Assembly: GCF_024223415.1 (NCBI RefSeq) | Contig: NZ_CP100500.1 | From: Escherichia coli | GTDB lineage: Bacteria > Pseudomonadota > Gammaproteobacteria > Enterobacterales > Enterobacteriaceae | Direction: 5' to 3' (one strand) | DNA length: 64,000 bases | Shown here: positions 1-19,945 of the stretch, piece after piece | Layout: each line of letters starts with the position of its first letter | How positions within the stretch are numbered: the stretch's first letter is position 1 | The notes under the pieces: model-generated | Told to the model about the DNA's origin: nothing | The model's input: only the letters and a program-made list of their open reading frames with translations | The model's database searches: none | Position numbers and translations under genes: made by a program

Positions 1-1062
1 CCCAGCCAGTCTTGCCATATACTCTGCATTTTTAGCAGCATATTCTCTGAAGTCTCTTAAAGGCCCCAGAACCGCCATCTTCGATTCCACATCGTTGTAA
101 TAGTCCGTCCAGATTCTGGCTGCCTGAGGAGAAAAGTGAAGGCAACGTCGCTCTCCCCTCATAGCCAGGCTTTCATCAATAAGTTCATTGATCCTCTTGT
201 CAAATAACTCCTGATACTGTGATGAATAATTATCTCCGGTTATTATCCTTGTCCCCTGCGTTGATGTTGGTTGACACATCAAAAACCGTGCATGATGTCC
301 TGATGTCTTCACCAGTTCTTTTTTTCGTGTACAAAAACCTTTGTGGTAAACATCAGGCTGAATCATCACCGATATCGTCAGTCTTGGGTCCTTCAAAAAA
401 ATCCCGGGAGATGATTTCCTGTCGATGAAAAGGGAACTACCATCCCATAAAGAGTTAAGTATTCCCAGTTTGCTCATTGCCCGGCTGTCAAAAATCACCC
501 CGCCCTCACTGGATACAAGAGCAAAAGAGCGATTGCTGTCGGAATAATATTTAAACATTCCCTCTGTCGTCGTATCATTAAAAATTGTCCGATTTATCTG
601 CGGTGGAACAGGACAACTATTCAGATGCATTCTGAGCTCTGATTCTGTTGCTTCATACTCTTTACCGGCACGAATCTCTTTATGAAGTTTTGACTCCAGT
701 GCCTTTTGTTTTTGCTCCCATATTTCCTTTTCTGCACTGTAATTCTCAACCAGTTTCGCATATTCTTCCGCAAGAGTTTCATCCCTGAGATAAAATGCTT
801 TCATAAAAACTTTATCCACGGTCGTTTTCCTTTCGCCGGAATCAGCCAGAATCATAGCGTAAAGATTAGAGGGGCCACGTAAATTACCAGGTCTGCACAC
901 ATCAATCTGATTCTGACAGGCAACTGACACCGCTGTTAATGCTGCTGTTGCAACCAGAGCCCCGGGCGCCTGTGTATTTTGCTGAGTTTCAATTATTGCA
1001 TTTCTCACCAGAGATGTTAATGCATTTATCGGAAAAGGGGCTTCCTGTTCAAGTAAGGACAT
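1..1062 (-). CDS. DUF3987/YfjI-like protein of a P4/CP4-57-type integrative element; 3' end lies beyond the window start
   Basis: Manual reverse translation from ATG (rc of 1060-1062, GAGGT Shine-Dalgarno upstream) is stop-free to position 1; N-terminus MSLLEQEAPFPINALTSLVRNAII. Absent from the ORF track because it has no in-window stop. Family assignment from memory of CP4-57 yfjI. Confidence 0.5.
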   Translation of the reverse strand, partial: MSLLEQEAPFPINALTSLVRNAIIETQQNTQAPGALVATAALTAVSVACQNQIDVCRPGNLRGPSNLYAMILADSGERKTTVDKVFMKAFYLRDETLAEEYAKLVENYSAEKEIWEQKQKALESKLHKEIRAGKEYEATESELRMHLNSCPVPPQINRTIFNDTTTEGMFKYYSDSNRSFALVSSEGGVIFDSRAMSKLGILNSLWDGSSLFIDRKSSPGIFLKDPRLTISVMIQPDVYHKGFCTRKKELVKTSGHHARFLMCQPTSTQGTRIITGDNYSSQYQELFDKRINELIDESLAMRGERRCLHFSPQAARIWTDYYNDVESKMAVLGPLRDFREYAAKNAEYMARLAG

Positions 1063-1321
1063 AAATACCTCAATTTTAGTTAATAAATCAGTAAAGTAGC
1101 AGATATTCCCGCTATAATAGCCAAAATAGCTGCTATGCATAGCCGATATGTTCTGAAAAATACAGTAATCGGGCATACCTGATGTTGAACAAAACGATAA
1201 GGTTGATTCAATTCAGCCTGTATTATTAGCTACGTAACATCATTCACATTGCTCACTCCTGACATCTTCTGATGATTATTTCAACGACGCCTTATTCATG
1301 GTCGTTTTCCTTTTTCATGAA

Positions 1322-1543
1322 TCAAAAAACAACCATAGTGTAAATATTCATGGGTTCACGAAAATTATCTAATCTGCACACATTAGTCAGATCCTGACGG
1401 GAAATTGACATATCTGTTAATACTGGCATTGCCATCAGAGTCAGAGGTACTTGTTTATTATATTGAGCTTTAATCATTGCCTTTCCCATCATTAATGATC
1501 GCGCATATACTGAATACGGCGTATCCGGTTTTATGTAAGACAT
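1322..1543 (-). pseudogene. Truncated degenerate duplicate of the 5' end of the DUF3987-like gene
   Basis: 73-aa ORF; protein and DNA at about 1290-1620 parallel 810-1140 (QVPLTLMAMPVLTDMSISRQDLTNVCRLDNFREP versus QAPGALVATAALTAVSVACQNQIDVCRPGNLRGP). Confidence 0.4.
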
Positions 1544-1718
1544 AAATGCTTCCTTTGTCGTAATGCGTGTCGGTTATAGCAGCAATTACCGCTACAATAG
1601 CGACAATAGCTGCTCTTTCAACAATGAATGCTGGAAATTCTGTTTATCAATTAAACTTCTGGCTAAATTATTCTTATGCTTCTTTTTCCTCCTGAGGTGA
1701 TCACGTGATGACAAAAAC

Positions 1719-2015
1719 TTATCTGCTCATGGTCATATCTGAAGAAAGCGTATGTCGCACTTCGTCATTAACACCTTTTACTGCTGATCTGGCTGGTACA
1801 GTATGTAAAGTAAGCCATTCGTCAATAGCTGATGAACGCCAGCCCACAGAACCACTACCAAGACGTACCGGCCTTGGGAAGGTTGCATCGTAATATTTCG
1901 ATAACGGATTCATTTTTTCGTAAATTGTCGAACGAGATATACCTAACAATTGGCTCAGTTCAGGCATCCGTAAGATGCGTGAAGGAGTCCAGCAGTGTCC
2001 GGATTGATCTGGCAT
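1719..2015 (-). CDS. AlpA-family (prophage CP4-57 type) transcriptional regulator
   Basis: Motif ILRMPELSQLLGISRSTIYEKMNP...YDATFPRPVRLGSGSVGWRSSAIDEWL matches the AlpA helix-turn-helix pattern; start trimmed to the internal Met (MPDQ) of track ORF 1719..2114. Confidence 0.6.
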   Translation of the reverse strand: MPDQSGHCWTPSRILRMPELSQLLGISRSTIYEKMNPLSKYYDATFPRPVRLGSGSVGWRSSAIDEWLTLHTVPARSAVKGVNDEVRHTLSSDMTMSR

Positions 2016-2237
2016 TTTATCCCCCTTAGTGTGGTGAACTGTCGTTACAGTTTGTATTCCTCGGGTAAATTTTTCTGCGTAAAAAAATGGGTTGAGCAAA
2101 AAGACAATAAACAACTAAAAATCAATATGATAGGAAACAACAGCATTATTGTTATTTTACTTTTCCCTTATCGCTGTCGATTCTCATTATCATTCATGGC
2201 AAAAAAACAGTAAAAGAGGCCCTAGTAATGACTCCGG

Positions 2238-2630
2238 TCAGTAGTACATGTGCTTCGATAAATGAACCAATGGCTTTTCGTTAATTTCCACGGAGCGTGA
2301 AAAGCAAATCGTTTTCAGGGATGGGAGTTTGATGTGAGTACGAAGTATCAGATTGTTGCGCTCAATGCGCCGGGTAAATATCCTGCCGACAGGATGCTTA
2401 TCCTGTGGTACTTCTCTGGTATAACTGCACCAGTTTTCACTGGTTATCATGCCTGAGGAGAATGGCTTCAGAAGTTCCGGCAACTCACTACATGTTTCAT
2501 CAGTACGAGGACCAAAAGTGTAAGCCCGCACACCGCCAGATTTGGTGTTATACGCATACCAGAGCCAGTGCTGACGAGCTTTGTTTCCGACAAAGCTCCA
2601 TTGTTCATCAAGTTCGCATATAAGCGCCAC
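2238..2630 (-). CDS. insB: IS1-family InsB-like transposase ORF
   Basis: MALICELDEQWSFVGNKARQHWLWYAYNTK...TRRIERNNLILRTH aligns with IS1 InsB ([23 protein letters not shown]...TQRIERHNLNLRQH); the frame continues upstream of the first Met. Confidence 0.6.
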   Translation of the reverse strand: MALICELDEQWSFVGNKARQHWLWYAYNTKSGGVRAYTFGPRTDETCSELPELLKPFSSGMITSENWCSYTREVPQDKHPVGRIFTRRIERNNLILRTHIKLPSLKTICFSRSVEINEKPLVHLSKHMYY

Positions 2631-2659
2631 ATCGGCACTGGCGACTGGAGATGTGGTTA

Positions 2660-2916
2660 CTTTGCATGGTGAGCGTTTTTTAAAGTGCGAATGACTGTGT
2701 TGATACCCACCTTCAGTGTTCTGGAGGTATCGCGAACCCCGGTTCCGTTATGAGCCATTTCAACGATTTGCTCTTTAACACTTGGTTTTCGGGCTTCGCA
2801 GGTGTAATTCAGTTGAAATACACGTTTGCAGGAGCGGCACTGGAAACAGTGCTGTGACCGTGACGGTACACTTTATCGGAATTACAGCGGGGACAATGTA
2901 CGGTAACTGTTGCCAT
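2660..2916 (-). pseudogene. insA: IS1-family InsA-like ORF with an apparent frameshift in the N-terminal zinc-finger region
   Basis: Reverse translation gives MATVTVHCPRCNSDKVYRHGHSTV then a stop; another frame continues QHCFQCRSCKRVFQLNYT...VEMAHNGTGVRDTSRTLKVGINTVIRTLKN, which is InsA-like. Confidence 0.45.
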
Positions 2917-3111
2917 ATGGACTCCGGATACCAACAGAATACCCCATTAATCTGCCCCCGGAAGTCATCCCGGTGCCTTCTGACATAATCTGTTAATACA
3001 TGAATTATTGCCCTGTTCAGAAAATATTAATTAAAAAATGAAAACCAGTTAACAGAAAAGCCACATGACATAATGTTAAAATTTTATATCGTGCAATAAA
3101 AGGAGAATGTT

Positions 3112-4938
3112 ATGTACAATTTTATCACTATAATGTATGATGTCTTTTCATGTTTTGGTGTTCTGGCTAAAAACCAGAATATCCGTGACATCCGAAATAT
3201 TAAAAACTTTTCCTCACATCAACATTCACTGGCCGACATGTTTGATGAATTAACATACATTATTGACAAAGAACAGGTACTGAGCACAGAACAACGAAAA
3301 GTTATATTCAGGAGATATGAAGATCTGTATGTTAAACTCATGCACTATTCTGTTTTTACAGACAAAACACATCAAATAATAAAACAAAAATATTTTAATG
3401 ATGTTGTTCCAATGATTCTCGCGCTCGACATCAGGAACACATATCGCCCGGATAATGAGATGGCATTTTACTATCATATCCATTCTTTTCTCACTCAGAT
3501 ACCGGATAATGAGGATGATATATATCATGCTGTAAGGACATATATGAGAAATTATGTTAAGTTATGTTTATCCGGATACACACCAACGAATGCGCATTTC
3601 AAAAATATCTTTGATGGAGTATATGAATTCATTCGTAATATTCGCAAAAACAGTACACCCGGAAAAACAAAACTTATTGCAGCTATCAACATATGCAAAG
3701 AAGCCTGTAAATATCTGCTTTGTTTAAGTGATAAAGACAAGGAAATAATATTTTCCGACTTAGATAAAATTCAGGTTGCATGTTATTCTCTCACTATATT
3801 ACTGGCTTTCGAAAGACGAACATCATTAACAAGTAACCTGGCAACTTTATATAAAATGCTGATAAACGAAAGAGAAGTTTCAGAATATGAATGTCAGCAA
3901 TTATATTTAATCAACCCAATAGATGTAATGAATATACTGAACAAATACATATATTACTTCCCTGGTGAGAATTCACCTCTTTATACACTGAAAATTGACA
4001 GTGCATTATCGTGGGATGCCATTGATGCAATACGAGACTATAGTATTTCTGATATTTATCTTTATCCTGAACAAAAAACAATAAATTGTATCGTTGAGAT
4101 TGAAAACATTGTCTTTGGCGGTTACATTTATACATTGAGCGACGGCGTCACATTACAAAATATGGAAAACACTTTAAAAGATTCCTCATGTCATTATGTA
4201 TTAAATGGCTATACAGAATTTGTTAACTGTTTAAGACAACTTACTTCAGGAAAGACTGAAAGTGTTCAGCGTACCATTAATAAACTGGAGTACGAAAAAT
4301 TACCTTTTGGATTTATCATTGCCGCGTTTGCTATATTAAAAATAGCATTTAAGATAAAGTTCAGTAAAAATCATGTAAATACCAGGGCATTATTAAATGA
4401 CATCAGTTATTTTATGACTTATCAGGGCGAGTCCATTAATCTTATTTCACTGGATCATGAATATCCAGAGTTCCGTCTTCAAAATGACACAAATACATAT
4501 TTATTGGGAAGGATGATATTTCTATATAACTCAATGATCTATAAATTCAGAAACTGCCAGGAACATGAAACCAATAACATTAACTCAGTTATGATAAATA
4601 ACCTATTACAGGAAGTTGATATAGCCCTTGGTAAAATAAATGACATTATAGACAGCAGAAACATATCAGTCCCCCATGAACTGGCAAATATTCTTATCCA
4701 CGAAAAAATACTTACAACACGTGAAAAAAAAGGAAACCTGATAAGCCTGTTTGATGGATTCACTTTATTCCATTGTGTTGGAATGATAACCTTTCTTATC
4801 CATTACCTCAGAACTCCTGAAGAAAAAGTAGAAAATGTATTTATGTTATATGGTGCAGATAAAAACAATAAACTACGCAGAAGACTGATTTATGATGCAC
4901 TAGAAATAATTCAGTCTCAGCAGGAGATGAAACCTTAA
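3112..4938 (+). CDS. Hypothetical 608-aa protein; AT-rich orphan cargo gene with no recognisable motif
   Basis: Long ORF with canonical AAGGAG Shine-Dalgarno 8 nt upstream of the ATG; AT-rich composition; no P-loop, HEPN, nuclease or transmembrane signature seen by eye. Confidence 0.8.
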   Translation: MYNFITIMYDVFSCFGVLAKNQNIRDIRNIKNFSSHQHSLADMFDELTYIIDKEQVLSTEQRKVIFRRYEDLYVKLMHYSVFTDKTHQIIKQKYFNDVVPMILALDIRNTYRPDNEMAFYYHIHSFLTQIPDNEDDIYHAVRTYMRNYVKLCLSGYTPTNAHFKNIFDGVYEFIRNIRKNSTPGKTKLIAAINICKEACKYLLCLSDKDKEIIFSDLDKIQVACYSLTILLAFERRTSLTSNLATLYKMLINEREVSEYECQQLYLINPIDVMNILNKYIYYFPGENSPLYTLKIDSALSWDAIDAIRDYSISDIYLYPEQKTINCIVEIENIVFGGYIYTLSDGVTLQNMENTLKDSSCHYVLNGYTEFVNCLRQLTSGKTESVQRTINKLEYEKLPFGFIIAAFAILKIAFKIKFSKNHVNTRALLNDISYFMTYQGESINLISLDHEYPEFRLQNDTNTYLLGRMIFLYNSMIYKFRNCQEHETNNINSVMINNLLQEVDIALGKINDIIDSRNISVPHELANILIHEKILTTREKKGNLISLFDGFTLFHCVGMITFLIHYLRTPEEKVENVFMLYGADKNNKLRRRLIYDALEIIQSQQEMKP

Positions 4939-4961
4939 ACAGGAAAATTATTTTTTATAAA

Positions 4962-4986
4962 CAGGGGATTATTGAGTAATCCCCTG
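4962..4986. terminator. Hairpin between the convergent 608-aa gene and int
   Basis: Inverted repeat CAGGGGA...TCCCCTG flanked by A/T runs. Confidence 0.35.
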
Positions 4987-5122
4987 CTCATCAAAACCCA
5001 CTTTCCTGACAATCTGATAACTATCAGCTCAATACATTTGACATAAAAGAGATCCCTTAATTATTACCGTTACGGTCACAATCACATATCAAATCATGAT
5101 TGTACAATATACATTTTCACTA

Positions 5123-6325
5123 TTATTTATTCATAATCTGAGACATCACATAATCCGCCCATGCCTGCATCATCGGTACACGCTGCTCCAGTAGATCAGT
5201 ACGATGATATGCCGCCTCAACCTTATTTTTCAGCGTATGAGCGAGCGCCCTTTCAGCCAGATCCCGCGAATACCCCTGCTCACTACACCAGTCCCTGAAT
5301 GTTGAACGAAAACCATGTGCCGTGGCGACTCGCCCCGGAATATCACTGACGGCTTTCTTTTTACGCAGAAAACTGGTCAACACCATATCTGAAAGGATCT
5401 GCTGCTTTCTGGGTGAAGGAAACACCAGTTCATCATGCAGACCACGTATATTTTCCAGAATGTAAATAGCCTGTCGGGATAAAGGAACACGATGCTGTAC
5501 CCTGGCTTTCATTCTTTCTGCTGGTATCGTCCATATCTGCTTATGAAAATCAATTTCAGTCCAGCGCATTCCCCTGGCTTCACCCGAGCGGGTTGCTGTA
5601 AGTATCACCATTAATAACAATGCGCGGGTAACATTATAGGGTTCATCGGTATACACACTGGTCGCCACAAAAAGCGGTAACTGCCTCCATGGCATTGCGG
5701 GTTGGTGTTCATCACGTCCTCTTGTCTGCTGGGGAAGCAAATGATCAACCACATCCACAGGATTTGCCACACAAAAACCATGTGCCCATCCCCACTGCAT
5801 AACAACATGAATGCGCTGTTTAACCCGGCTTGCCGTTTCTGACAAAGTTAACCAGACTGGCCGCAGTGTTTCTGCCACGTCCGCAGCCGTAATCGAATCC
5901 AGCGTTTTCGCTCCCAGTTGAGGAAAGGCGTAATTCTCAAGCGTCGATAACCACTGCCGGACATGCTTTGGATTTTCCCATCCAGGAGACAGTTCTGCAT
6001 GTACACGTCTGGCTGCATCGGCAAATGTTGGGATAACAACTTTTTCAGCCTCAGCCTTTTTAATCTCCAGAGGATCATCACCAGCAGCAAGTTGCTCTCG
6101 CATTATCCGGGCAGTACGTGCAGCTTCAGCAATGCTGATCTCAGGGTAAGTTCCCAATCCAGCATTACGCCTTTTTTGTGTCACCGGACTTACATAACGA
6201 AAAACCCATTTACCCCGACCCTTTACTGAAGAAGGATGAAGGGTCAGTCCTGTAATTCCCCCATGGGGCAATGGTTTGTCATCAGGTTTGATATGCCTTG
6301 CTTTCGTATCCGTCAATACTGCCAT
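5123..6325 (-). CDS. int: Tyrosine integrase, P4/CP4-57 family
   Basis: 400 aa; C-terminal catalytic region HGFRSTFRDWCSEQGYSRDLAERALAHTLKNKVEAAYHRTDLLEQR is typical of P4-like integrases. Confidence 0.9.
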   Translation of the reverse strand: MAVLTDTKARHIKPDDKPLPHGGITGLTLHPSSVKGRGKWVFRYVSPVTQKRRNAGLGTYPEISIAEAARTARIMREQLAAGDDPLEIKKAEAEKVVIPTFADAARRVHAELSPGWENPKHVRQWLSTLENYAFPQLGAKTLDSITAADVAETLRPVWLTLSETASRVKQRIHVVMQWGWAHGFCVANPVDVVDHLLPQQTRGRDEHQPAMPWRQLPLFVATSVYTDEPYNVTRALLLMVILTATRSGEARGMRWTEIDFHKQIWTIPAERMKARVQHRVPLSRQAIYILENIRGLHDELVFPSPRKQQILSDMVLTSFLRKKKAVSDIPGRVATAHGFRSTFRDWCSEQGYSRDLAERALAHTLKNKVEAAYHRTDLLEQRVPMMQAWADYVMSQIMNK

Positions 6326-6343
6326 ACGCTAATTCCTGTTACT

Positions 6344-6367
6344 CTGGTATGCCATCTGGTATGCCAT
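6344..6367. repeat. Tandem direct repeat CTGGTATGCCAT x2 just upstream of the int start; candidate arm-type integrase site
   Basis: Two perfect adjacent 12-bp copies 19-44 bp upstream of the int ATG. Confidence 0.4.
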
Positions 6368-6482
6368 TATCTTCACGCTTCAGTCAGAATACAGTAGATG
6401 ACATCAGACAGTAAAATATGCAATATACTGTTTATAATCAAATTTTATGACACAACAGGACTCATTCAGATTCATTTCAGGC

Positions 6483-6499
6483 GGTCCCCCTCACCGCCA
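6483..6499 (+). other. tRNA 3'-end-like sequence (CCCCTCACCGCCA); candidate att core or host serW 3' remnant at the island boundary
   Basis: Resembles a tRNA-Ser acceptor/CCA end but no complete tRNA (no T-arm) precedes it; followed by an intrinsic terminator. Confidence 0.35.
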
Positions 6500-6510
6500 T
6501 ATTTAAAGAA

Positions 6511-6541
6511 GAGCTCGTACGAAAGTGCGAGCTTTTTTTTT
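6511..6541 (+). terminator. Rho-independent terminator
   Basis: AGCTCG-loop-CGAGCT stem followed by a T9 run. Confidence 0.6.
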
Positions 6542-6543
6542 CG

Positions 6544-6692
6544 CATTTTATCTGCCTGTACGGCAGTGAACATGGTGGGCGGGTGGAGTATGTTACCAGT
6601 GAATTTCTAAGCTGCCTGTACGGCAGTGAACGTTTGCTGCAACCGCTAGCCAAGACGGTAGGTTTTTCTAAGCTGCCTGTACGGCAGTGAAC
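6544..6692 (-). CRISPR. Orphan type I-F CRISPR mini-array: 3 repeats, 2 spacers, no cas genes in the window
   Basis: Minus-strand repeat GTTCACTGCCGTACAGGCAGCTTAGAAA (the E. coli I-F repeat) at 6604-6631 and 6665-6692 plus a degenerate terminal copy at 6544-6571; spacers of 32-33 nt. Confidence 0.85.
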
Positions 6693-6842
6693 TCAAATAC
6701 TACACGTTTAGCCCGTTGTTAATAAAGCAAAACCATCCCATTCTCCTGCAGCACCCTTTTTTATCCTTACCTTCCAGCAGCACTAATTATCAACAACTTA
6801 CCTTCACCTCCAAAAATAGGGTTTTCACCGTTCCACCCCATA

Positions 6843-6879
6843 AATAAAAAGTCCGTAACCTCTTTCGAGATTACGGACT
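6843..6879 (-). terminator. clpA transcription terminator
   Basis: Stem AGTCCGTAA / TTACGGACT followed on the minus strand by a T-run, about 25 bp past the clpA stop. Confidence 0.6.
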
Positions 6880-6903
6880 TCACCAACCTACCTGACAATC
6901 AGA

Positions 6904-9180
6904 TTAATGCGCTGCTTCCGCCTTGTGCTTTTGTGCACTCTGAAATCCGTAAGTCAGCTCATTTTTCTCTTTATCCAGCGCGACGGTGACCTGACCGCCG
7001 TCCACCAGCGAACCAAACAGCAGTTCGTTGGCAAGCGGTTTTTTCAGGTTGTCCTGGATGACACGCGCCATCGGACGAGCGCCCATTGCCCGGTCGTAAC
7101 CTTTCTCGGCCAGCCAGTTACGCGCTTCCTGGCTCACTTCCAGAGAAACACCTTTCTGATCCAGCTGAACCTGCAACTCGACGATGAATTTATCCACCAC
7201 CTGATGGATCACGTCAGTTGACAGATGATCGAACCAGATAATGTTGTCGAGACGGTTACGGAATTCCGGTGTAAAGATCTTCTTGATCTCTTCCATCGCA
7301 TCGGTGCTGTTATCCTGGTGGATAAGACCAATGGATTTGCGCTCAGTTTCCCGTACCCCGGCGTTAGTGGTCATCACCAGTACCACGTTACGGAAGTCCG
7401 CTTTGCGTCCGTTGTTATCGGTCAGCGTACCGTTGTCCATCACCTGCAACAGAATATTGAACACGTCCGGATGCGCTTTCTCGATTTCGTCCAGCAGCAG
7501 CACCGCATGTGGATGCTTGATGACCGCATCAGTCAGCAAACCGCCCTGATCAAAACCAACGTATCCCGGAGGCGCACCAATCAGACGGCTGACGGTATGG
7601 CGTTCCATATACTCGGACATATCAAAGCGCAGAAGCTCAATGCCCAAAGCTTTCGAAAGCTGTACCGTCACCTCTGTTTTCCCGACCCCGGTAGGACCGG
7701 CAAACAGGAACGAACCGACCGGTTTATGTTCGTGACCTAAACCTGCACGCGCCATCTTAATGGCTTCAGTCAGCGCCTCAATGGCTTTATCCTGACCGAA
7801 GACCAGCATTTTCAGGCGATCGCCGAGGTTTTTCAGGGTATCGCGGTCACTCTGAGAAACACTCTTCTCTGGAATGCGTGCAATACGGGCCACCACGGAC
7901 TCAATATCCGCCACATTAACGGTTTTCTTGCGTTTGCTTACCGGCATCAGGCGTGCGCGAGCGCCCGCTTCGTCGATAACATCAATCGCTTTATCCGGCA
8001 GATGACGATCGTTAATGTATTTCACCGCCAGCTCTACCGCCGCACGCACCGCTTTTGCGGTATAACGCACGTCGTGGTGCGCTTCATACTTCGGTTTCAG
8101 GCCATTGATGATTTGAACAGTTTCTTCGATCGACGGTTCAGTAATATCAATTTTCTGGAAGCGACGCGCCAGAGCACGGTCTTTCTCGAAAATGTTGCTG
8201 AACTCCTGATAGGTTGTCGAACCAATTACGCGAATTTTACCGCTGGAGAGCAACGGTTTGATTAGGTTAGCCGCATCGACCTGACCACCAGACGCTGCAC
8301 CCGCACCGATAATGGTGTGGATCTCATCAATAAACAGGATGCTGTTAGTGTCCTGCTCCAGCTGCTTGAGCAACGCTTTAAAACGTTTTTCAAAGTCGCC
8401 GCGATATTTTGTGCCCGCTAACAGAGAACCGATATCGAGAGAGTAAATCGTACAGTCAGCCATCACTTCCGGCACATCGCCCTGAACAATTCGCCAGGCA
8501 AGACCTTCTGCAATCGCGGTTTTACCGACACCAGATTCCCCCACTAGCAGCGGGTTGTTTTTACGGCGACGGCAGAGAACCTGAATAGCACGCTCCAGCT
8601 CCTTCTCACGACCAATCAGTGGGTCGATTCCGCCCACGCGCGCAAGCTGATTCAGGTTCGTCGTGAAATTCTCCATACGTTCCTCCCCACCAGCTTGTTC
8701 TTCGCTGTTTGGCTGGCTGCCAGGATCAGAAGACTGTGTCGGCTCGTCTTTACGCGTGCCATGAGAGATAAAGTTCACCACATCGAGACGGCTGACTTCA
8801 TGTTTACGCAACAGATATGCCGCCTGCGACTCCTGTTCGCTAAAGATAGCGACCAGAACGTTTGCACCGGTAACCTCATTGCGACCGGAGGACTGGACAT
8901 GGAAGACCGCACGTTGCAGTACACGCTGAAAACTCAGCGTCGGCTGTGTGTCGCGCTCCTCTTCACTGGCAGGCAGAACGGGTGTGGTTTGTTCAATAAA
9001 GGCTTCCAGTTCCTGACGGAGCGCAACCAAATCCACAGAACACGCTTCCAGCGCCTCCCGGGCAGATGGGTTACTGAGCAGCGCCAGTAACAAGTGCTCG
9101 ACGGTCATAAACTCATGACGGTGCTCGCGCGCTCTGGCGAAAGCCATATTTAAACTGAGTTCCAGTTCTTGATTGAGCAT
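6904..9180 (-). CDS. clpA: ATP-dependent Clp protease ATP-binding subunit ClpA
   Basis: Product begins [35 protein letters not shown] and carries two AAA+ Walker A motifs ([16 protein letters not shown]); start trimmed from the track ORF. Confidence 0.95.
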
Positions 9181-9210
9181 AGGCACCTCCCCCAATTTTT
9201 ATGCCTGCAT

Positions 9211-9531
9211 TCAGGCTTTTTCTAGCGTACACAGCAATGGATGCTCATTCTCCCTCGCGTACTTGTTCACCATCGCCACTTTGGTTTCTGCAACCTCGGC
9301 GGTAAAGACTCCGCAAATGGCCTTCCCCTGGTAGTGAACAGCGAGCATCAATTGCGTTGCACGTTCTACATCATAAGAAAAGAATTTTTGTAACACGTCA
9401 ATAACAAACTCCATCGGAGTGTAATCATCATTGACTAATATCACTTTATACATAGATGGCGGTTTTAGCGCGTCGCGAACTTTTTCTTCCGCCAGTTGAT
9501 CAAAGTCCAGCCAGTCGTTCGTTTTACCCAT
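9211..9531 (-). CDS. clpS: ClpS adaptor protein
   Basis: 106 aa, [47 protein letters not shown], directly upstream of clpA. Confidence 0.95.
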
Positions 9532-9616
9532 TGTCAGTTATCATCTTCGGTTACGGTTATCGGCAGAACGCCCTGCCGCTGACAAGAGCTTATTTGCCTG
9601 ACCAATCTACTCCACA

Positions 9617-9633
9617 TGATAGATAACTATCAT
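9617..9633. other. Left att core candidate TGATAGATAACTATCAT
   Basis: Near-identical copy TGATAAATAACTATCAT at 20087-20103. Confidence 0.4.
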
Positions 9634-9705
9634 TTATATCATTTAGTTAATTAGTCTTTATTTTTCATTATGTTGCAAATAACAAGCCCGTCAAAAACAG
9701 TGATA

Positions 9706-9760
9706 TTAACTACACCATTAACTACACCGCTTCACGAACAATATCGAACAACCGCGAACA
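9706..9760. repeat. Left-arm repeats: AACTACACC x2 followed by CGAACA x3 (candidate integrase or accessory-factor sites)
   Basis: The same motifs recur in the same orientation at 19946-20078. Confidence 0.4.
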
Positions 9761-9880
9761 AAGATCAACACGCTTTAATCATTATCATTTTCCGGCTATC
9801 CGTCATGAAGCTGGTGGATGATCTGCGTGGTGATTTCCACCATTCAGAGCAGGTGCGGTCATCATGACCATGCCATAACA

Positions 9881-9905
9881 AAAACCCCATATTCGTGGTT
9901 TTTCT
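9881..9905 (+). repeat. 25-bp direct repeat copy 1 (AAAACCCCATATTCGTGGTTTTTCT)
   Basis: Second copy AAACCCCCGGATTCGTGGTTTTCCT at 10518-10542; the pair flanks a hairpin-rich non-coding segment. Confidence 0.5.
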
Positions 9906-10517
9906 GTGTCGGGGCTATTCTGCTGTTGCCGTGCTGGTGGATATTCTCCGGTATGCGGCTCCCCATATCGGCATCAGGCCCACCAGCGTGAAGCGTTTTT
10001 CATTTTTCGCGGGTATAAAAAATCGATGGGGCGGGCAGTCCTGAAGACGTCAGGGTACAGAGATTTGACCCGCCCCTCCCTGTGCATGAGCACAATAAGT
10101 AACCGAAGGCGGAATTCCGCCCTCGGTACTTACATATGAGAAACGATATTTCTTCCACCGATACCCTTTATTTGGGTATCGCGAGTAAGCCCCAAAATCT
10201 GGGTGTTACTCTTACTACCCAAACTACGGGTAGTTTCCGTAGTTTCATGGTCGAGTTGCAAATCTGCAACTCACCCACCAGCCAGCGCAATGTCGCATTA
10301 TCAGTCCTCAGATGTGAGGGATGTAGCCAGCTTTTCCCCCAGTGGGGATTATCCAGTTACCGACGGTTTAACCGCCTGTACCAGCACAACGAAAGAATTT
10401 GCGGGTAGCTTTAAACTACTCACAACATCCCATCTTACAGGCCGTGCCTTTCTAACTTTTTACAATGCAATAAGTCAGGTAACGCTATGCGTTCCACCGT
10501 GTACACCGCGCCAGTAA

Positions 10518-10542
10518 AACCCCCGGATTCGTGGTTTTCCTG
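10518..10542 (+). repeat. 25-bp direct repeat copy 2
   Basis: See copy 1 at 9881-9905. Confidence 0.5.
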
Positions 10543-10554
10543 AATATCAGGAAT

Positions 10555-10929
10555 CTACCGCCGCAACCGTTCCGGCTTCTTCCACTGATAAGTGTTTTTC
10601 GCGCTCTCCCTCCGTTGTTGAGAACGGCGACGGTATGCCAGCAACTCAAGGACTCTGGTTCGTATGTTGCGCATATCCACGCCGTTAAGCTCAATACCAT
10701 CACGGCGCATCACCTCAGCAACAACACACGCGTAATTTTCGGCTATCACGCTGTCCGGCTGCGTGGCCTCCTGTTCGCCAGCCTGCTGGCTGATTCCGGT
10801 AATACTGCGGATTATCCCGAGCGCTTCGGTCTCGGTCATGGTCATGGCCTCCATAGTGATGGCGGGTCCTCCTTGTGGGGTGCCCTGCCACGGGGCGGGA
10901 GCATCGCGGAAAAAGGCTAGTTTTTGCAT
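10555..10929 (-). CDS. Hypothetical protein of the satellite packaging module
   Basis: 124-aa ORF downstream of the Nu1-like gene; no recognisable domain; start uncertain. Confidence 0.45.
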   Translation of the reverse strand: MQKLAFFRDAPAPWQGTPQGGPAITMEAMTMTETEALGIIRSITGISQQAGEQEATQPDSVIAENYACVVAEVMRRDGIELNGVDMRNIRTRVLELLAYRRRSQQRRESAKNTYQWKKPERLRR

Positions 10930-11090
10930 TTTTATTCGTTATCACCACCAATGCAATATATTGATATGACTTGATGTTTTATTTTTCGGTGTCGATTTCG
11001 ATTGTTTTTTGTTCATCACTGACGCATAACGCCCACCAGCGCAACGCTGAAAGCCAGTCAGTAAACTGGCTTCGGTCATTGTGCACTACG

Positions 11091-11645
11091 TTACTTGTCT
11101 TTATCCGGCTGAAACTTATCAGGCACATTTCCGGTAGTTTCCATCAGATAATCGGACAGCATTCGCGGGATGTTTTCATCAAGTTTTGTGCATGCGTTAC
11201 AGGCTCTGACAACTTCTTTTTTCAGGCCATCCAGCATGGCGGGGGTCATCTGTGGGAAGCTCCTTTGCATAGTAAGCGGGAGGCTGTCCATGATTGATGA
11301 AATCTGACTCGCCAGTTTTGAAAGCGCGTACATGCAAAACTCTGTATCAATCACGTCACCGCGATCGCGCTCGTTTTTAAGTTCCTGCGCCTCCGCCTGT
11401 GCTGTCAGTAATCTGATCCTGACTCGTAAAAGTTCATCATCGTCAATCTCGCCTTTGTCGTTTGTAATCTGGCTGATTGCATTGTTAACCCGATTATCTA
11501 TTACACTGGCGACATCATAAAACGTCTCACGGCCCTTACGCTCGACGGGAATCACTCCCCACTTATCGAACGCAGTGGCGCTTACTCGGCAGCTTTTCGC
11601 CATGTTTTTTTTATTCATCAGGTGCGATTTCATCAATACCCCCAC
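11091..11645 (-). CDS. Terminase small subunit, lambda Nu1-like
   Basis: LLRVRIRLLTAQAEAQELKNERDRGDVIDTEFCMYALSKLASQISSIMDSLPLTMQRSFPQM...LDENIPRMLSDYL aligns with lambda Nu1; probable true start at the MNKKNMAK Met near 11618. Confidence 0.8.
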   Translation of the reverse strand: MGVLMKSHLMNKKNMAKSCRVSATAFDKWGVIPVERKGRETFYDVASVIDNRVNNAISQITNDKGEIDDDELLRVRIRLLTAQAEAQELKNERDRGDVIDTEFCMYALSKLASQISSIMDSLPLTMQRSFPQMTPAMLDGLKKEVVRACNACTKLDENIPRMLSDYLMETTGNVPDKFQPDKDK

Positions 11646-11727
11646 TTAATTAATGCTTCAGGTTGGTGTGTTGGTGTTATCTTTCCATTTTTATTCATAG
11701 AGATAGAGCGAACAACAAAACCACCAC

Positions 11728-11790
11728 CAACCCGAAAAGGCTCATAAATAGCGAAAATCCGCAAGGTCGACGCCCCGTAACGGGTCCACA
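11728..11790 (-). other. Lambda-type cos site (cosN/cosB)
   Basis: Minus strand reads ACGGGGCGTCGACCTTGCGGATTTTCGCTATTTATGAGCCTTTTCGGG, matching the lambda cos sequence as I recall it (ACGGGGCGGCGACCTCGCGGGTTTTCGCTATTTATGAAAATTTTCCGG); about 120 bp upstream of the Nu1-like gene. Confidence 0.8.
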
Positions 11791-11805
11791 TGCCGGAAAG
11801 GACCC

Positions 11806-11835
11806 ATAAAAAATAAAGCCGGACTACTCCGGCTT
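11806..11835 (-). terminator. Rho-independent terminator after the FinO/ProQ-like gene
   Basis: Stem AGCCGGA / TCCGGCT followed on the minus strand by a T-rich run. Confidence 0.5.
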
Positions 11836-11858
11836 CGTCTCTTCATGTGGTCAGGGTT

Positions 11859-12539
11859 TTATGCTTTCCGTACGCCCGAGGAACTGGCATTTTTCAGAAT
11901 AATATTATGCCCTGCTGGTGGCTTACCGTTATGCTTATTTTCTGCCTTCATGTTTCTGCGCTCCTGCTGTTTTTTCTTCATCTCATCCAGTCGCTTCCCC
12001 GCGTTCAACTGGTGCTCCTGTGTCACCTCCCCGCACGGATGGCCTTTCAGGTCGTAACGCACGCCACCAGCCATCAGGGAACGGTAATATCGCACTGAAC
12101 TGACATAATACGCCAGCGTTGCGCGAAGCGCTCCCTGACCTAATGAAATACCTCTCGCAGTAATATCCTCCATCAGGTCATCAAATATGCCAACCTTAAG
12201 CGGTCTGGGCGATTCCTGGCTGAAAAGTTCAGGCCAGAGCGCGGCAAGGCGTTCAACGCGTCTGATATTTTTTTTCCGGCTCTTTTCTGATTTGCGTTTT
12301 GCTGCCGTCTTCTGTTGTGTTTTCTGCTCGCGGCTCTGCTTTTGCGCTGGTGTGGTTTTATCCGGCTGTTCAGCCTCCTGCGTCTTTTTCTGCGGTGTGC
12401 CGTATATGCCTTTTGGTTTTCGGTTAATGGTCAGCTTTGTCATGTTCTCCCCCTTTGTGCTGTTCCACCAGCGGCATCTGCTACCCCGTGTCGCTCCCGC
12501 TGGTGTCGTGTTTCCCCGCCTGTTAATAACCGTCATCAT
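11859..12539 (-). CDS. FinO/ProQ-domain RNA-binding protein with a Lys/Gln-rich N-terminal region
   Basis: RPLKVGIFDDLMEDITARGISLGQGALRATLAYYVSSVRYYRSLMAGGVRYDLKGHPCGEVTQEHQ aligns with the E. coli ProQ N-terminal domain (RPLKIGIFQDL...RLYTSSWRYL...RVDLDGNPCGEL); start uncertain. Confidence 0.75.
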   Translation of the reverse strand: MMTVINRRGNTTPAGATRGSRCRWWNSTKGENMTKLTINRKPKGIYGTPQKKTQEAEQPDKTTPAQKQSREQKTQQKTAAKRKSEKSRKKNIRRVERLAALWPELFSQESPRPLKVGIFDDLMEDITARGISLGQGALRATLAYYVSSVRYYRSLMAGGVRYDLKGHPCGEVTQEHQLNAGKRLDEMKKKQQERRNMKAENKHNGKPPAGHNIILKNASSSGVRKA

Positions 12540-12843
12540 TTACGTTATCAGGGTAATCACGCCATATTTCATCAGTAAGCGACGGTAGCCCCATCTGTTG
12601 TATTGTCCTGTCTGCGGCCCTTCTGACTGCGTGAACATCATAACGGTTTTCAGGTATCGGGCGCTTTGCCTTCCTGATACATTCCCTTGCTCTCATTGCC
12701 GCAAGTTCTCTGTGCCTGTCTTCCTGAAGAGTAATCATCACATCCTGCCACCTTCTGGCAGCCCGTCGCCACAGTCCCCTGCTCTCGAGTTCTTCTGCTG
12801 TCGCGTCGCTTATTGTCCGGTTCTTCGGTGTGCTGTTGTTCAT
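12523..12843 (-). CDS. PerC-family transcriptional activator-like protein
   Basis: N-terminal EELESRGLWRRAARRWQDVM resembles the PerC/Pch signature (recalled, not searched). Confidence 0.55.
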   Translation of the reverse strand: MNNSTPKNRTISDATAEELESRGLWRRAARRWQDVMITLQEDRHRELAAMRARECIRKAKRPIPENRYDVHAVRRAADRTIQQMGLPSLTDEIWRDYPDNVNDDGY

Positions 12844-12860
12844 GTTGCTCCCCGCCTGAT

Positions 12861-13271
12861 TCAGAAGGGTATATCATCTCCGTAGGGGTCATCGCCTCCC
12901 GCTGGTGGCTTATTCCCCTGTGCGCCTGTGGTTTTGCGTGTTTTTCCGCCCGGTCGCACTGTCCGCGCACTGATTACGCTGTCTGCGATAACCTGCCAGC
13001 CCTGCCGCGTTTCCCCGTTCTGTCCGGTCCACTGGCTCACCTGCATGTTACCCGCCACGCTCAGGAGTTCACCCTTGCGGTGCTTTGCCAGTGCTTCGGC
13101 CTGTCTGCCAAACGCCAGCACAGATAACCACATCGTCGCCGTTCCGTCATCTGCCTGGCTGCACGGAAGGGGGACCGCCATACTCGCCATCGCCATTTGT
13201 GTCCCCTTGCTGGTGGTCTTTAACTGCGGGTCAGCCACCAGCCGCCCGTAAGCCGCTATCTGTGCTGTCAT
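12861..13271 (-). CDS. ssb: Single-stranded DNA-binding protein (SSB)
   Basis: OB-fold-like N-terminus (IAAYGRLVADPQLKTTSKGTQMAMASMAV), Gly-rich linker and the acidic C-terminal tail DDIPF. Confidence 0.8.
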   Translation of the reverse strand: MTAQIAAYGRLVADPQLKTTSKGTQMAMASMAVPLPCSQADDGTATMWLSVLAFGRQAEALAKHRKGELLSVAGNMQVSQWTGQNGETRQGWQVIADSVISARTVRPGGKTRKTTGAQGNKPPAGGDDPYGDDIPF

Positions 13272-13525
13272 GCTGTATGCTCTCCGGTTTTAACGTTGAT
13301 GGTTGTCACCTGTTCCGCTCCGGCAATCTCCCGTTCTGTCAGCGTGGCAAAATTTGCCGCTACCGTTGTCATGAATGCGCTTATCAGTGCGGGATGTGCT
13401 TTCGCGTATCCTTCTCCCGCGCTGCGGTCGATAATTTTTATCGCCACCCTCAGCCAGTGCTCTGTAAGGTCAATGGCGCGGTTATGTGGTTTCTTCTGAT
13501 TATTAAGTTTTCCTGATGTGTGCAT
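13268..13525 (-). CDS. Hypothetical protein
   Basis: 85-aa ORF overlapping the ssb start by 4 nt (translational coupling). Confidence 0.5.
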   Translation of the reverse strand: MHTSGKLNNQKKPHNRAIDLTEHWLRVAIKIIDRSAGEGYAKAHPALISAFMTTVAANFATLTEREIAGAEQVTTINVKTGEHTA

Positions 13526-13570
13526 TTTTATTTTTACCCCCTCGTTTAAAAAGTTTTGTGTTGTGGTGCA

Positions 13571-13806
13571 CCTCCTCTACCTCTCTACACAATCATCTTT
13601 CAGGTCAGTAATGGCGCGGCTTTCAGCGGGGTAGAGGGCTTTTTTGGCCCTCTACCTGCCATCTACCACCCCCTCACAAATGCCCTGAATTATGGTAGAG
13701 GGTGTAGAGGGCTTTTAAGTACCTTCTACCTGCCATCTACCCAATCTATCAACATGAAATATATGTAATTATTTTCTTAAGGTAGAAGGGGTAGAGGGCT
13801 TTTGTC
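13571..13806. repeat. Iteron cluster; candidate satellite replication origin
   Basis: At least three copies of GGTAGAGGGCTTTT and repeated CTACCTGCCATCTACC, including the palindrome GGTAGAGGGC-TTTTTTG-GCCCTCTACC, immediately 3' of the primase gene. Confidence 0.55.
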
Positions 13807-13811
13807 TAAAA

Positions 13812-15560: not shown

Positions 15561-15856
15561 TTTTTACCCCTGAATCCGTTAATCATGGTTTTCATCTTCT
15601 GAATATTGGCGCGTGCTTTCTCCCTGCTGGTGGGCACGTTACGCGGTACGGCCTGCACAAGAGAAAAATCACGCACAAACTGATAAACAGGCATCACGCA
15701 ATCATATTCGTAACCTTCATGGCGGTAGGTGATGCGCCGTTCTGCCACGCCTTTAATCGTTACCGTACCGCCGTAGTTATCACGGAAAATATCGCCGGGA
15801 CGGATTTCAGGCCGAGTGAGGCCGCTGGCAGTAAAGCCAGAATTTTTCTTTTTCAT
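15557..15856 (-). CDS. Hypothetical protein (99 aa), coupled to the primase gene
   Basis: Stop overlaps the primase start (ATGA). Confidence 0.6.
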   Translation of the reverse strand: MKKKNSGFTASGLTRPEIRPGDIFRDNYGGTVTIKGVAERRITYRHEGYEYDCVMPVYQFVRDFSLVQAVPRNVPTSREKARANIQKMKTMINGFRGKK

Positions 15857-15886
15857 GGTTTTATTTTCCTGTCAGTGATTCCGGCT

Positions 15887-16060
15887 TTATTCCGGCGCGA
15901 ATACAGGCTTCAGAAAAAAAGCCAGAGAACCAATAACCTCATTATTTCTAAGGCGGCATTGCGATTTCACTTTCCCTTTATCCAGGAATATCAAAACGCG
16001 CCCCGTATAATCAGATGGCACATTAAGCACTACAGGTAAGTGCGCTTCATGATTATTCAT
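15887..16060 (-). CDS. Hypothetical small protein (57 aa)
   Basis: Start trimmed to the ATG preceded by AGGAGGTGG; N-terminus MNNHEAHLPVVLNV; start overlaps the stop of the upstream gene. Confidence 0.5.
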   Translation of the reverse strand: MNNHEAHLPVVLNVPSDYTGRVLIFLDKGKVKSQCRLRNNEVIGSLAFFLKPVFAPE

Positions 16061-17434: not shown

Positions 17435-17484
17435 TTATTTTTTTTCCTGCATACTGCATTTGTTTTTTGTAAGGGGTACACAAC

Positions 17485-19919: not shown

Positions 19920-19945
19920 GTTTCGCGTTTCCGGTCATCAAAATT

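What the first reader, a model, noticed from the sequence alone, without database searches (positions are those of the whole stretch)
1..6541. Right-hand part of a P4/CP4-57-type integrative element ending at a tRNA 3'-end-like sequence next to the clpA-proximal CRISPR
Integrase, AlpA-like regulator and DUF3987-like gene follow the CP4-57 arrangement (intA, cargo, alpA, yfjI). A perfect tandem CTGGTATGCCAT repeat sits 19-44 bp upstream of the int start, and the element ends at CCCCTCACCGCCA (6483-6499) followed by a terminator, consistent with insertion into the 3' end of the tRNA-Ser gene (serW) that lies beside clpA in K-12. The intact tRNA and left junction are outside the window.
Basis: partly seen in the sequence, partly recalled or inferred. 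Interest (0 to 1): 0.5.

Follow-up and report, generated by a model that had tools for sequence, protein, structure and literature searches.

The report
Integrase end of serW genomic island

Summary
Window 1-6499 carries, right to left, a 14-bp copy of the serW 3' end (CCCCCTCACCGCCA, 6486-6499) and a perfect tandem CTGGTATGCCAT x2 (6344-6367). Then come an intact P4-family integrase (5123-6325, -), a 608-aa unknown ORF, a decayed IS1-family remnant, an AlpA/Rox-type gene, a yfjI 5' fragment and yfjI/DUF3987.

K-12 homology resumes exactly at the 14-mer, and K-12 has the empty site. Related islands show the other end: infA, intact serW, the same 14-mer, then about 66-76 kb of island.

The 14-bp repeat is the published one for O157 OI-43/OI-48 and Shigella SRL PAI. 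The integrase is 98% identical to the O157 serW-island integrase. The kind is therefore already known.

Two additions:
- The 12-mers recur as a 12-bp-spaced pair at the far end, and upstream of 73%-identical integrases that use another core. They are probably integrase arm sites. The core reads GGCGGT-N7-ACCGCC.
- The "cargo" ORF belongs to a small all-alpha family with no known relative. It always lies divergent from alpA-yfjI-yfjJ, so it is a module partner of unknown function.

Interest is low.

The parts
1..1062 (-). yfjI-type DUF3987 gene (first 354 of 477 codons; the rest lies left of the window). Probable helicase/primase-type replication protein of the excised element.
   Evidence: Pfam DUF3987, E = 3e-77. 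PHROG 2373 'DNA helicase'. The full 477-aa gene is seen in L006, which is 100% identical to window 1-11865. It is 43% identical to K-12 YfjI. The DUF3987 'prim' gene is needed for replication in PICMI satellites (PMC10803314).
1322..1543 (-). 73-aa fragment homologous to the N-terminus of YfjI. It is part of a diverged duplicate (1292-1614) of the yfjI 5' region (812-1134) and is a probable pseudogene relic.
   Evidence: Weak Pfam DUF3987 match to profile positions 1-42. DNA self-match 812-1134 vs 1292-1614 at 69%. 35-36% aa identity to YfjI N-termini.
1719..2015 (-). AlpA/Rox-family small DNA-binding protein (98 aa). Probable recombination directionality factor (excision helper).
   Evidence: PF05930, E = 1e-18. 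PHROG 'excisionase and transcriptional regulator'. 99% identical to the O157 island copy and 54% to K-12 AlpA. SRL PAI orf3 = rox sits in the equivalent module (PMC6980539).
2238..2930 (-). Decayed IS1-family transposase remnant (InsB-like ORF 2238-2630; InsA-like part with stop codons up to about 2845-2930).
   Evidence: PF03400 DDE_Tnp_IS1, E = 5e-54. tblastn of an intact IS1 InsAB hits 2546-2845 at 35%. No canonical IS1 ends were found. The O157 copy is annotated 'IS1 family transposase, frameshifted; internal stop' at the same place and is about 91% identical, like its flanks, so it is an old insertion shared by both lineages.
3112..4938 (+). orf608: a 608-aa, AT-rich (32% GC), all-alpha protein of unknown function. 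It is a conserved partner of the alpA-yfjI-yfjJ module, here separated from alpA by the IS1 remnant.
4940..5008 (.). Inverted repeat between the convergent orf608 and int genes; a likely bidirectional terminator.
   Evidence: the repeat finder I1: 32-nt arms, 78% complementary, 5 nt apart.
5123..6325 (-). P4-family tyrosine integrase, 400 aa, apparently intact.
   Evidence: Arm-DNA-bind_3, Phage_int_M and Phage_integrase domains. Motifs ATRSGEARG (244), HGFRSTFRDW (337) and AAYHRTD (371) are present. 98% aa identity to the O157:H7 serW-island integrase and 34% to K-12 IntA.
6344..6367 (-). Two perfect tandem 12-mers (int sense: ATGGCATACCAG x2), 19-42 bp upstream of the int ATG and 118 bp from the core. 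Proposed arm-type integrase-binding sites (P arm), probably overlapping the int promoter.
   Evidence: Three copies in L007. Conserved as ATGGCATAC tandems upstream of 73%-identical integrases with a different core, while the flanks diverge. The same motif occurs as a 12-bp-spaced pair 58-81 bp inside the other island end. CP4-57-type integrases carry different 12-bp-spaced repeats at the same place.
6480..6498 (+). Core-type inverted repeat GGCGGT - CCCCCTC - ACCGCC (6-bp arms, 7-bp spacer). Proposed integrase core-binding sites flanking the strand-exchange region.
   Evidence: Read directly from the sequence. The same 6-7-6 layout with other letters (GGCGGA ACGGACG TCCGCT) occurs at the core of the 73%-identical integrases. 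Function is inferred.
6486..6499 (+). attR core: a 14-bp direct repeat equal to the last 14 nt of tRNA-Ser(GGA) serW. This is the right boundary of the island.
   Evidence: Identical to the K-12 serW 3' end, and K-12 homology starts here. Equals the published OI-43/OI-48/SRL PAI repeat TGGCGGTGAGGGGG (PMC3064760). Single copy in the window.
6509..6541 (+). Original serW terminator (backbone, not island): hairpin GAGCTCGTAC-GAAA-GTGCGAGCT plus a T-run.
   Evidence: Same sequence follows serW in K-12 (one extra T in the window's T-run). The consensus scanner did not flag it.
6544..6692 (-). Context only: residual type I-F CRISPR array of three repeats and two spacers, between serW' and clpA.
   Evidence: Rfam CRISPR-DR4 at 50.1, 50.1 and 29.7 bits. 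The repeat finder D1. K-12 has two repeats and one spacer.

Best explanation
Window 1-6499 is the integrase-proximal (attR) end of a large integrative genomic island of the SRL-PAI / OI-43/OI-48 family, inserted into the 3' end of the tRNA-Ser(GGA) gene serW of an E. coli-type chromosome.

Shown:
- The island boundary is the 14-bp serW 3' copy at 6486-6499.
- The chromosome continues exactly as in K-12: serW terminator, I-F CRISPR relic, clpA.
- The integrase and the AlpA/Rox-type gene are intact.
- K-12 has the empty site.
- Related islands end at an intact serW beside infA carrying the same 14-mer.
- The same int module (99.8-100% identical) sits at either the serW or the serX flank in different strains.

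Inferred mechanism:
- The P4-family integrase binds the core (GGCGGT-N7-ACCGCC) through its catalytic and core-binding domains.
- Its N-terminal arm-binding domain binds the 12-bp-spaced ATGGCATAC repeats. There are two or three copies next to int, and two copies 58-81 bp inside the far end.
- With the AlpA/Rox factor it recombines the two 14-bp repeats. This releases a circle whose attP can re-enter serW or serX, which share the same 3' end.
- yfjI (DUF3987) and the Gp2-like protein just left of the window would replicate the circle.
- The island supplies a new hairpin terminator to the rebuilt serW at the far end.

orf608 is not random cargo. It is a conserved, divergently transcribed partner of alpA-yfjI-yfjJ, and its role is unknown.
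For: Anatomy.

Empty site and exact junction.

Other end in relatives:
- O157:H7 NZ_CP038302.1 reads infA - serW (intact) - 76-kb island - int - serW' - clpA.
- L047 reads ...CbtA - DUF4942 - serW - infA - aat.
- Left ends at both serW and serX carry the 14-mer, a hairpin and GTATGCCAC-N3-GTATGCCAT.

Accessory status: present in 1025 of 5426 complete genomes.

Source strain: L006 is 100% identical to window 1-11865.

Two sites: the int module lies next to clpA (L006, L012) or next to ycdU/ycdT/phoH, the serX side (L005, L007-L011).

Integrase: 98% identical to the O157 serW-island integrase.

Literature:
- Identical 14-bp repeat, P4-family int, and measured excision of OI-43 (1.8e-3) and OI-48 (PMC3064760).
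- SRL PAI is mobile, int-dependent, and uses serX/serW (PMC7545054).
- SRL orf1 = int, orf2 = YfjI-like, orf3 = rox, orf4 = no similarity (PMC6980539).
- AlpA is necessary and sufficient for excision, and the DUF3987 primase is needed for replication, in PICMI (PMC10803314).

Arm sites: the motif is conserved upstream of 73%-identical integrases with a different core, and the repeats are lineage-specific in CP4-57-type elements.
Against: - The left junction of this very strain was not seen. The 66-kb layout is a composite walk through several genomes and could be mosaic.
- No complete RefSeq E. coli genome carries this exact (>92%) variant.
- Excision, the circle, and binding of Int to the 12-mers were not and cannot be tested here.
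- The 12-mers could instead be AlpA/Rox sites.
- No sigma-70 consensus promoter was found for int.
- An IS1-family remnant and a yfjI fragment show some decay near the regulatory genes.
Confidence: 0.9

Rival explanations
1. The block is an immobilised relic. The integrase end survives, but the island is now fixed in the chromosome and no longer excises or transfers.
For: - A decayed IS1-family remnant sits between orf608 and alpA, and a truncated yfjI copy lies beside the full gene.
- The IS remnant is shared by lineages that differ by 9%, so the arrangement is old.
- The left end of this strain is unseen.
- No promoter consensus lies upstream of int.
Against: - int (400 aa, catalytic motifs) and alpA are intact, and the 14-bp core is perfect.
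- The int module is 99.8-100% identical at two different chromosomal sites, serW and serX, in different strains.
- The 98%-identical O157 system excises at measurable rates (PMC3064760).
Confidence: 0.12
2. The tandem 12-mers are not integrase arm sites. They are operator sites for the AlpA/Rox factor or another regulator of the int promoter, or a functionless slippage duplication.
For: - They lie only 19-42 bp from the int start.
- Small excision factors typically bind direct repeats about one helical turn apart (general knowledge of Xis/Cox-type factors).
- Copy number varies, 2 or 3, as slippage would give.
- AlpA is also conserved (62-72%) in the relatives that keep the motif.
Against: - The same motif pair, with the same 12-bp spacing and orientation, occurs on the other side of the core at the far end of the island. 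This matches two-arm binding by an integrase that has an arm-binding domain.
- The motif is invariant while the surrounding DNA diverges.
- A different integrase lineage has different repeats in the same position.
Confidence: 0.2
3. The element is a phage satellite (P4-like, PICI or PICMI type) rather than a genomic island. It would be mobilised by a helper phage.
For: - The int-alpA-DUF3987 triad is the core of PICMI satellites (PMC10803314).
- A Gp2-like replication protein and a primase-helicase follow just left of the window.
Against: - No capsid, sid/psu/delta or terminase genes occur in the 13 kb next to int.
- The composite element is about 66 kb of metabolic, adhesin and toxin-antitoxin genes, far larger than a satellite.
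- The closest relatives are described as pathogenicity or genomic islands.
Confidence: 0.04

Closest known systems
O-islands OI-43 (serW) and OI-48 (serX) of E. coli O157:H7 EDL933 (tellurite-resistance/adherence islands; SpLE1 in Sakai)
   Same: - Same insertion sites.
- Same 14-bp direct repeat TGGCGGTGAGGGGG (PMC3064760).
- The integrase is 98% identical to that of an O157:H7 serW island.
- That O157 serW island has the same int-proximal gene order: int, 605-aa ORF, IS1 remnant, HTH, yfjI fragment, yfjI. I did not check that it is OI-43 itself.
   Different: - The int-proximal 6.6 kb is only about 91% identical in DNA.
- The cargo differs. Here it is a metabolic set (Na/Ala symporter, sigma-54 regulator, dehydrogenases, pxp genes, ABC transporter) instead of ter/ure/iha or the CDI locus.
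[quoted passage not shown]
   Same: - P4-family int.
- 14-bp repeat at serX, with serW as an alternative site.
- int-dependent excision.
- The Rox (AlpA-type) factor and a YfjI-like gene next to int.
- A distal end with Ag43, DUF957, DUF4942 and ISSfl8.
(PMC7545054; PMC6980539; PMC3064760.)
   Different: - In SRL the order is int-orf2 (yfjI)-rox-orf4, the module orientation seen in L014. Here it is int-orf608-IS1'-alpA-yfjI.
- The window has no resistance or fec genes.
- The SRL sequence itself was not available for direct alignment.
CP4-57 cryptic prophage of E. coli K-12 (ssrA; intA-yfjH-alpA-yfjI-yfjJ)
   Same: - Same module logic: P4-family int, a gene divergent from alpA, then alpA-yfjI-yfjJ.
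- 12-bp-spaced direct repeats between the att core and int.
   Different: - It integrates at ssrA, not serW.
- IntA is 34%, AlpA 54% and YfjI 43% identical.
- yfjH is not homologous to orf608 (hhalign probability 0.05%).
- int lies beside the intact RNA gene in the same direction, whereas here int lies at the fragment end and is divergent from the core.
PICMI / Gram-negative PICI satellites (int-alpA-primase)
   Same: - The int, AlpA and DUF3987-protein triad.
- AlpA-driven excision and DUF3987-dependent replication are shown experimentally for PICMI (PMC10803314).
   Different: - Satellites are small and phage-packaged.
- This element is tens of kb of cargo, with no packaging genes near int.

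Membership tests
SRL-PAI / OI-43/OI-48 serW-serX integrative islands | P4-family tyrosine integrase (arm-binding N-terminal domain + core-binding domain + catalytic domain) closely related to the OI-43/48/SRL integrase | tested here: met
   Three Pfam domains. 98% aa identity to the integrase of an O157:H7 serW island. The link from EDL933 int to SRL int (99% nt) comes from PMC3064760 and was not re-aligned here.
SRL-PAI / OI-43/OI-48 serW-serX integrative islands | Insertion at the 3' end of serW or serX, bounded by the 14-bp direct repeat TGGCGGTGAGGGGG | tested here: met
   The right copy is at 6486-6499, with K-12 homology resuming there. The left copy lies outside the window. It is present with intact serW in O157 and in L047/L048/L050-52.
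SRL-PAI / OI-43/OI-48 serW-serX integrative islands | AlpA-type recombination directionality factor (Rox) next to a YfjI-like gene near int | tested here: met
   PF05930 at 1719-2015 and DUF3987 at 1-1062. The SRL orf2/orf3 layout is given in PMC6980539.
SRL-PAI / OI-43/OI-48 serW-serX integrative islands | int-dependent precise excision to a circular form | not testable with these tools
   Only indirect evidence: the identical module at serW and serX flanks in different strains, and published excision rates for OI-43/48.
CP4-57 (ssrA) prophage | Integration into ssrA with an IntA-type integrase | tested here: not met
   The site is serW, and IntA is 34% identical. Only the gene order resembles CP4-57.
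P4-like satellite phage | sid/psu/delta capsid-size genes, cos, and alpha primase-helicase | tested here: not met
   None was found among the genes in the 13 kb next to int.
PICI / PICMI satellites | Small int-alpA-primase element with phage-dependent packaging functions or minimal size | tested here: not met
   The triad is present, but the element is about 66-76 kb with metabolic, adhesin and TA cargo and has no terS/capsid genes near int.

The most novel reading that the evidence does not exclude
orf608 (3112-4938) may represent an unrecognised, structurally novel all-alpha protein family that forms a fourth core component of the alpA-yfjI-yfjJ excision/replication module of enterobacterial tRNA/tmRNA islands.

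Its position is divergent from alpA across a roughly 100-bp shared control region in relatives. This mirrors the master repressor Stl of staphylococcal islands, so it could be the sensor or regulator that decides when the island excises. Alternatively it could be an island-borne exclusion or defence factor.

My evidence shows conserved synteny at 25-35% identity in at least six genera and no similarity to any known family or fold. It shows nothing about function.
Probability: 0.3. Interest if true: 0.45.

Novelty: already known. Interest (0 to 1): 0.15.

Why it matters
The finding correctly marks an island boundary and a second active attachment-site pair (serW and serX) in this strain's lineage. 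That is useful for annotation and for explaining strain-to-strain differences at the clpA-infA locus.

It adds no new biology. The integrase, the 14-bp repeat, the excision factor and the site were described for SRL PAI and for O157 OI-43/OI-48.

Two by-products are modestly useful:
- A concrete att-site anatomy (core inverted repeat with a 7-bp spacer, and ATGGCATAC arm repeats on both arms). This could guide mini-island or integration-vector design.
- The recognition that the about 600-aa 'no similarity' gene beside rox/alpA is a conserved family worth a knockout.

Tried and rejected
- Exact variant in complete E. coli genomes: none found. The best hit is 91% over the int end. Nothing reaches 80% coverage for the next 6.5 kb, and only one partial hit exists for the metabolic cargo.
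- Walk to the left end by exact-protein look-ups: this reached serW only as a composite of different genomes. One look-up was wasted on a start-codon variant.
- yfjH as a homologue of orf608: rejected (hhalign probability 0.05%).
- orf608 as a known defence gene or phage protein: no PADLOC, PHROG, NCBIfam or Pfam match, singly or across 17 family members.
- A possible metal-site motif in orf608 (H36, D52, E70, D106, HxH122-124): rejected, because the histidines are not kept in all members.
- Canonical IS1 ends around the IS remnant: none found.
- The 73-aa yfjI fragment as a relic of the L014/SRL-type module: rejected (no similarity).
- A conserved leader upstream of orf608 surviving next to alpA in the window: only a 14-nt match, so not claimed.
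- Rfam: nothing in 1-6541 beyond chance-level hits.
- Turner et al. 2004 on SRL attP could not be read.

Full report
**Observation.**
ORFs and Pfam give the following:
- a 400-aa integrase at 5123-6325 (-), with Arm-DNA-bind_3, Phage_int_M and Phage_integrase domains;
- an AlpA-family protein at 1719-2015 (-);
- a DUF3987/yfjI gene running off the left edge (1-1062, -);
- a 73-aa DUF3987 N-terminal fragment (1322-1543, -);
- a decayed IS1-family transposase (about 2238-2930, -);
- a 608-aa ORF with no family match (3112-4938, +).

The perfect tandem CTGGTATGCCAT x2 lies at 6344-6367, 19-42 bp upstream of the int ATG. These are the only exact copies in the 64-kb window. The tRNA-like end is CCCCCTCACCGCCA at 6486-6499, unique in the window. 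A hairpin plus T-run follows at 6511-6541, then three I-F CRISPR repeats (Rfam CRISPR-DR4) and clpA (6904-9195). ARAGORN finds no tRNA in the window.

**Junction and empty site.**
In K-12 the order is clpA, CRISPR relic, terminator, serW, infA. Read on the window's strand, K-12 serW ends ...GGTTCGAATCCCCCCCTCACCGCCA and continues TATTTAAAGAAGAGCTCGTACGAAAGTGCGAGC.... The window is collinear with K-12 from 6486 rightwards at 97.9-98.8% identity. It is unrelated to K-12 to the left of 6486. So the insertion point is the last 14 nt of serW, and the backbone is E. coli-type.

**The other end.**
The window does not contain the left end, so I looked at relatives.
- The whole 1-6900 segment is present at 80% coverage or more in 1025 of 5426 complete E. 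coli genomes, never above about 92% identity.
- In O157:H7 NZ_CP038302.1 the same gene order abuts clpA. The island runs 76 kb to an intact serW next to infA. That serW carries the same 14-mer.
- The island part is about 91% identical to the window while clpA-clpS is 98.9% identical. The island lineage is therefore distinct from its host backbone.
- Exact-protein look-ups found this precise variant in many draft genomes. L006 is 100.000% identical to window 1-11865.
- Walking left through overlapping loci gives a composite layout:
  1. int, orf608, IS1', alpA, yfjI', yfjI, a Gp2-like protein, and an AEP-primase/DEAD-helicase;
  2. a CaiF/GrlA-like gene and Hha;
  3. a block of metabolic and transport genes;
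  4. a YeeP-like GTPase and Ag43;
  5. DUF932, antirestriction, RadC, CbeA/CbtA and DUF4942;
  6. intact serW, infA and aat.
- This is roughly 66 kb, but it is stitched together from different genomes and may be mosaic.
- The same int module lies next to clpA (serW side) in L006 and L012, and next to ycdU, ycdT or phoH (serX side) in L005 and L007-L011, at 99.8-100% identity.

**Literature.**
- OI-43 and OI-48 of EDL933 are flanked by perfect 14-bp repeats, TGGCGGTGAGGGGG. These are the last 14 bp of serW and serX and are identical to those of SRL PAI. Both islands carry a P4-family integrase 99% identical to the SRL one, and they excise at 1.8e-3 and 2e-4 per cell (PMC3064760). That repeat is the reverse complement of window 6486-6499.
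- SRL PAI excision needs int, and serW is an alternative site (PMC7545054).
- SRL orf1 is int, orf2 is YfjI-like, orf3 is rox and orf4 has 'no similarity' (PMC6980539).
- The window's integrase is 98% identical to the O157 serW-island integrase and only 34% to CP4-57 IntA.

The element therefore belongs to the SRL-PAI/OI-43 family. It resembles CP4-57 only in module logic.

**Att-site anatomy (partly inferred).**
- On the + strand the core reads GGCGGT CCCCCTC ACCGCC A (6480-6499). This is a perfect 6-bp inverted repeat around a 7-bp spacer, the usual layout of tyrosine-recombinase core sites.
- Integrases 73% identical to this one (a metagenome contig and Edwardsiella hoshinae) sit next to a different core, GGCGGA ACGGACG TCCGCT, with the same 6-7-6 layout. 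They keep tandem ATGGCATAC 12-mers just upstream of int while the surrounding DNA diverges.
- At the far end of the O157 island, and of the L047-L052 islands, the sequence GTATGCCAC-N3-GTATGCCAT-CTG lies 58-81 bp inside the island. It follows a hairpin that terminates the rebuilt serW, and it has the same strand and 12-bp spacing as the int-proximal pair.
- One strain has three int-proximal copies.
- CP4-57-type elements have different 12-bp-spaced repeats in the same place: TAGGCCCA in K-12 and AGGCACCT in L042.

Together with the arm-binding domain of the integrase, the best reading is that the 12-mers are arm-type integrase sites on both arms of attP. Those next to int probably also affect int expression. 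Binding by the AlpA/Rox factor remains a rival. No sigma-70 consensus promoter was detected for int.

**How it most likely works.**
Int, helped by the AlpA/Rox-type factor, recombines the two 14-bp repeats. This leaves an intact serW with its original terminator and releases a circle. The circle can re-enter serW or serX. YfjI (DUF3987; PHROG 'DNA helicase') and the Gp2-like protein would replicate it. In PICMI satellites, AlpA is necessary and sufficient for excision and the DUF3987 protein is needed for replication (PMC10803314). These steps are inferred for this island. They were shown experimentally only for relatives.

**The 'cargo' ORF.**
- orf608 has no match in Pfam, PADLOC, NCBIfam, PHROGs or PDB profiles.
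- It has only 34 relatives among 1.84 billion representatives.
- A confident AlphaFold model (pLDDT 83, pTM 0.84) is all-helical and has no meaningful structural neighbour.
- Homologues at 25-35% identity occur in Kluyvera, Edwardsiella, Xenorhabdus, Enterobacter, Citrobacter and metagenomes. In every case they lie divergent from alpA-yfjI (and yfjJ where the contig reaches it). The neighbouring integrase is either a serW/X-type or an ssrA-type.
- The gene is always lower in GC than its neighbours.
- It occupies the position of K-12 yfjH but is not homologous to it.
- In the window, an old IS1-family remnant separates it from alpA. That remnant is shared with the 9%-diverged O157 lineage.

I conclude that orf608 is a conserved module partner of unknown role. 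A regulatory or exclusion function is speculation.

**Verdict.**
The kind of element, its site, its repeat and its recombination genes are already described, so novelty is low. What is added here is the att-site anatomy and the recognition of the orf608 family.

Noticed in passing
window 9638-20085: A second, separate integrative element of about 10.4 kb lies between clpS and yljB/cspD. It is bounded by an imperfect repeat (GATAGATAACTATCAT / GATAAATAACTATCAT) at a non-tRNA site. It carries a P4-family int (18681-19919), AlpA (18052-18348), a 662-aa ORF with no Pfam match (16053-18041), DUF4222, a D5_N/DUF5906 primase-helicase (13812-15560), SSB, PerC, a ProQ/FinO-like protein and a Nu1-like small terminase (11091-11645). 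It looks like a PICI-type phage satellite. O157 has a different element at the same site.
   Followed up: partly
window 6544-6692: The residual I-F CRISPR array has three repeats and two spacers. K-12 has two repeats and one spacer. The extra spacer is GTTTGCTGCAACCGCTAGCCAAGACGGTAGGT.
   Followed up: partly
L008 13556, L011 13556, L012 13553 (relatives, not the window): Some strains carry a second copy of the 14-bp core plus tRNA terminator about 180 bp beyond the first, on the chromosomal side of the island. This could be a scar of an earlier insertion or a tandem att fragment.
   Followed up: no
L007 13238-13273 versus window 6344-6367: The 12-mer upstream of int is polymorphic in copy number: three copies in a serX-located island and two in the window and in O157.
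   Followed up: partly
window 812-1134 and 1292-1614: The yfjI promoter-proximal region and first about 70 codons are duplicated at 69% identity. This leaves a 73-aa orphan ORF between alpA and yfjI. The same structure is present in O157.
   Followed up: partly
L006 2493-4844 (about 2-4.4 kb left of the window start): A 783-aa protein fuses an archaeo-eukaryotic primase (AEP-TOTE / CRISPR-associated PrimPol-like, PADLOC E = 9e-134) to a DEAD/ResIII helicase. It lies next to a Gp2/YfjJ-like gene. RefSeq annotation calls relatives a 'TOTE conflict system' protein.
   Followed up: no
L019 3728-3829, L020 7898-8000, L040-L042 (alpA/orf608 intergenic regions): The roughly 100-bp region between alpA and the orf608 homologues contains a well conserved stretch (GATACTGTCCCCGTAGAAAAA-GAAACCAAC...GAGGG) just upstream of the orf608-type start codon. 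It may be a shared regulatory element. In the window this region is disrupted by the IS1 remnant.
   Followed up: no
L014 15796-20207 versus window 1-6325: A sister lineage has the module in the opposite order next to a 94%-identical integrase: int, yfjI, alpA, orf607. This matches SRL PAI orf1-orf4. Its orf607 and yfjI are only about 30% and 27% identical to the window's, which implies whole-module replacement between islands that share the integrase.
   Followed up: partly
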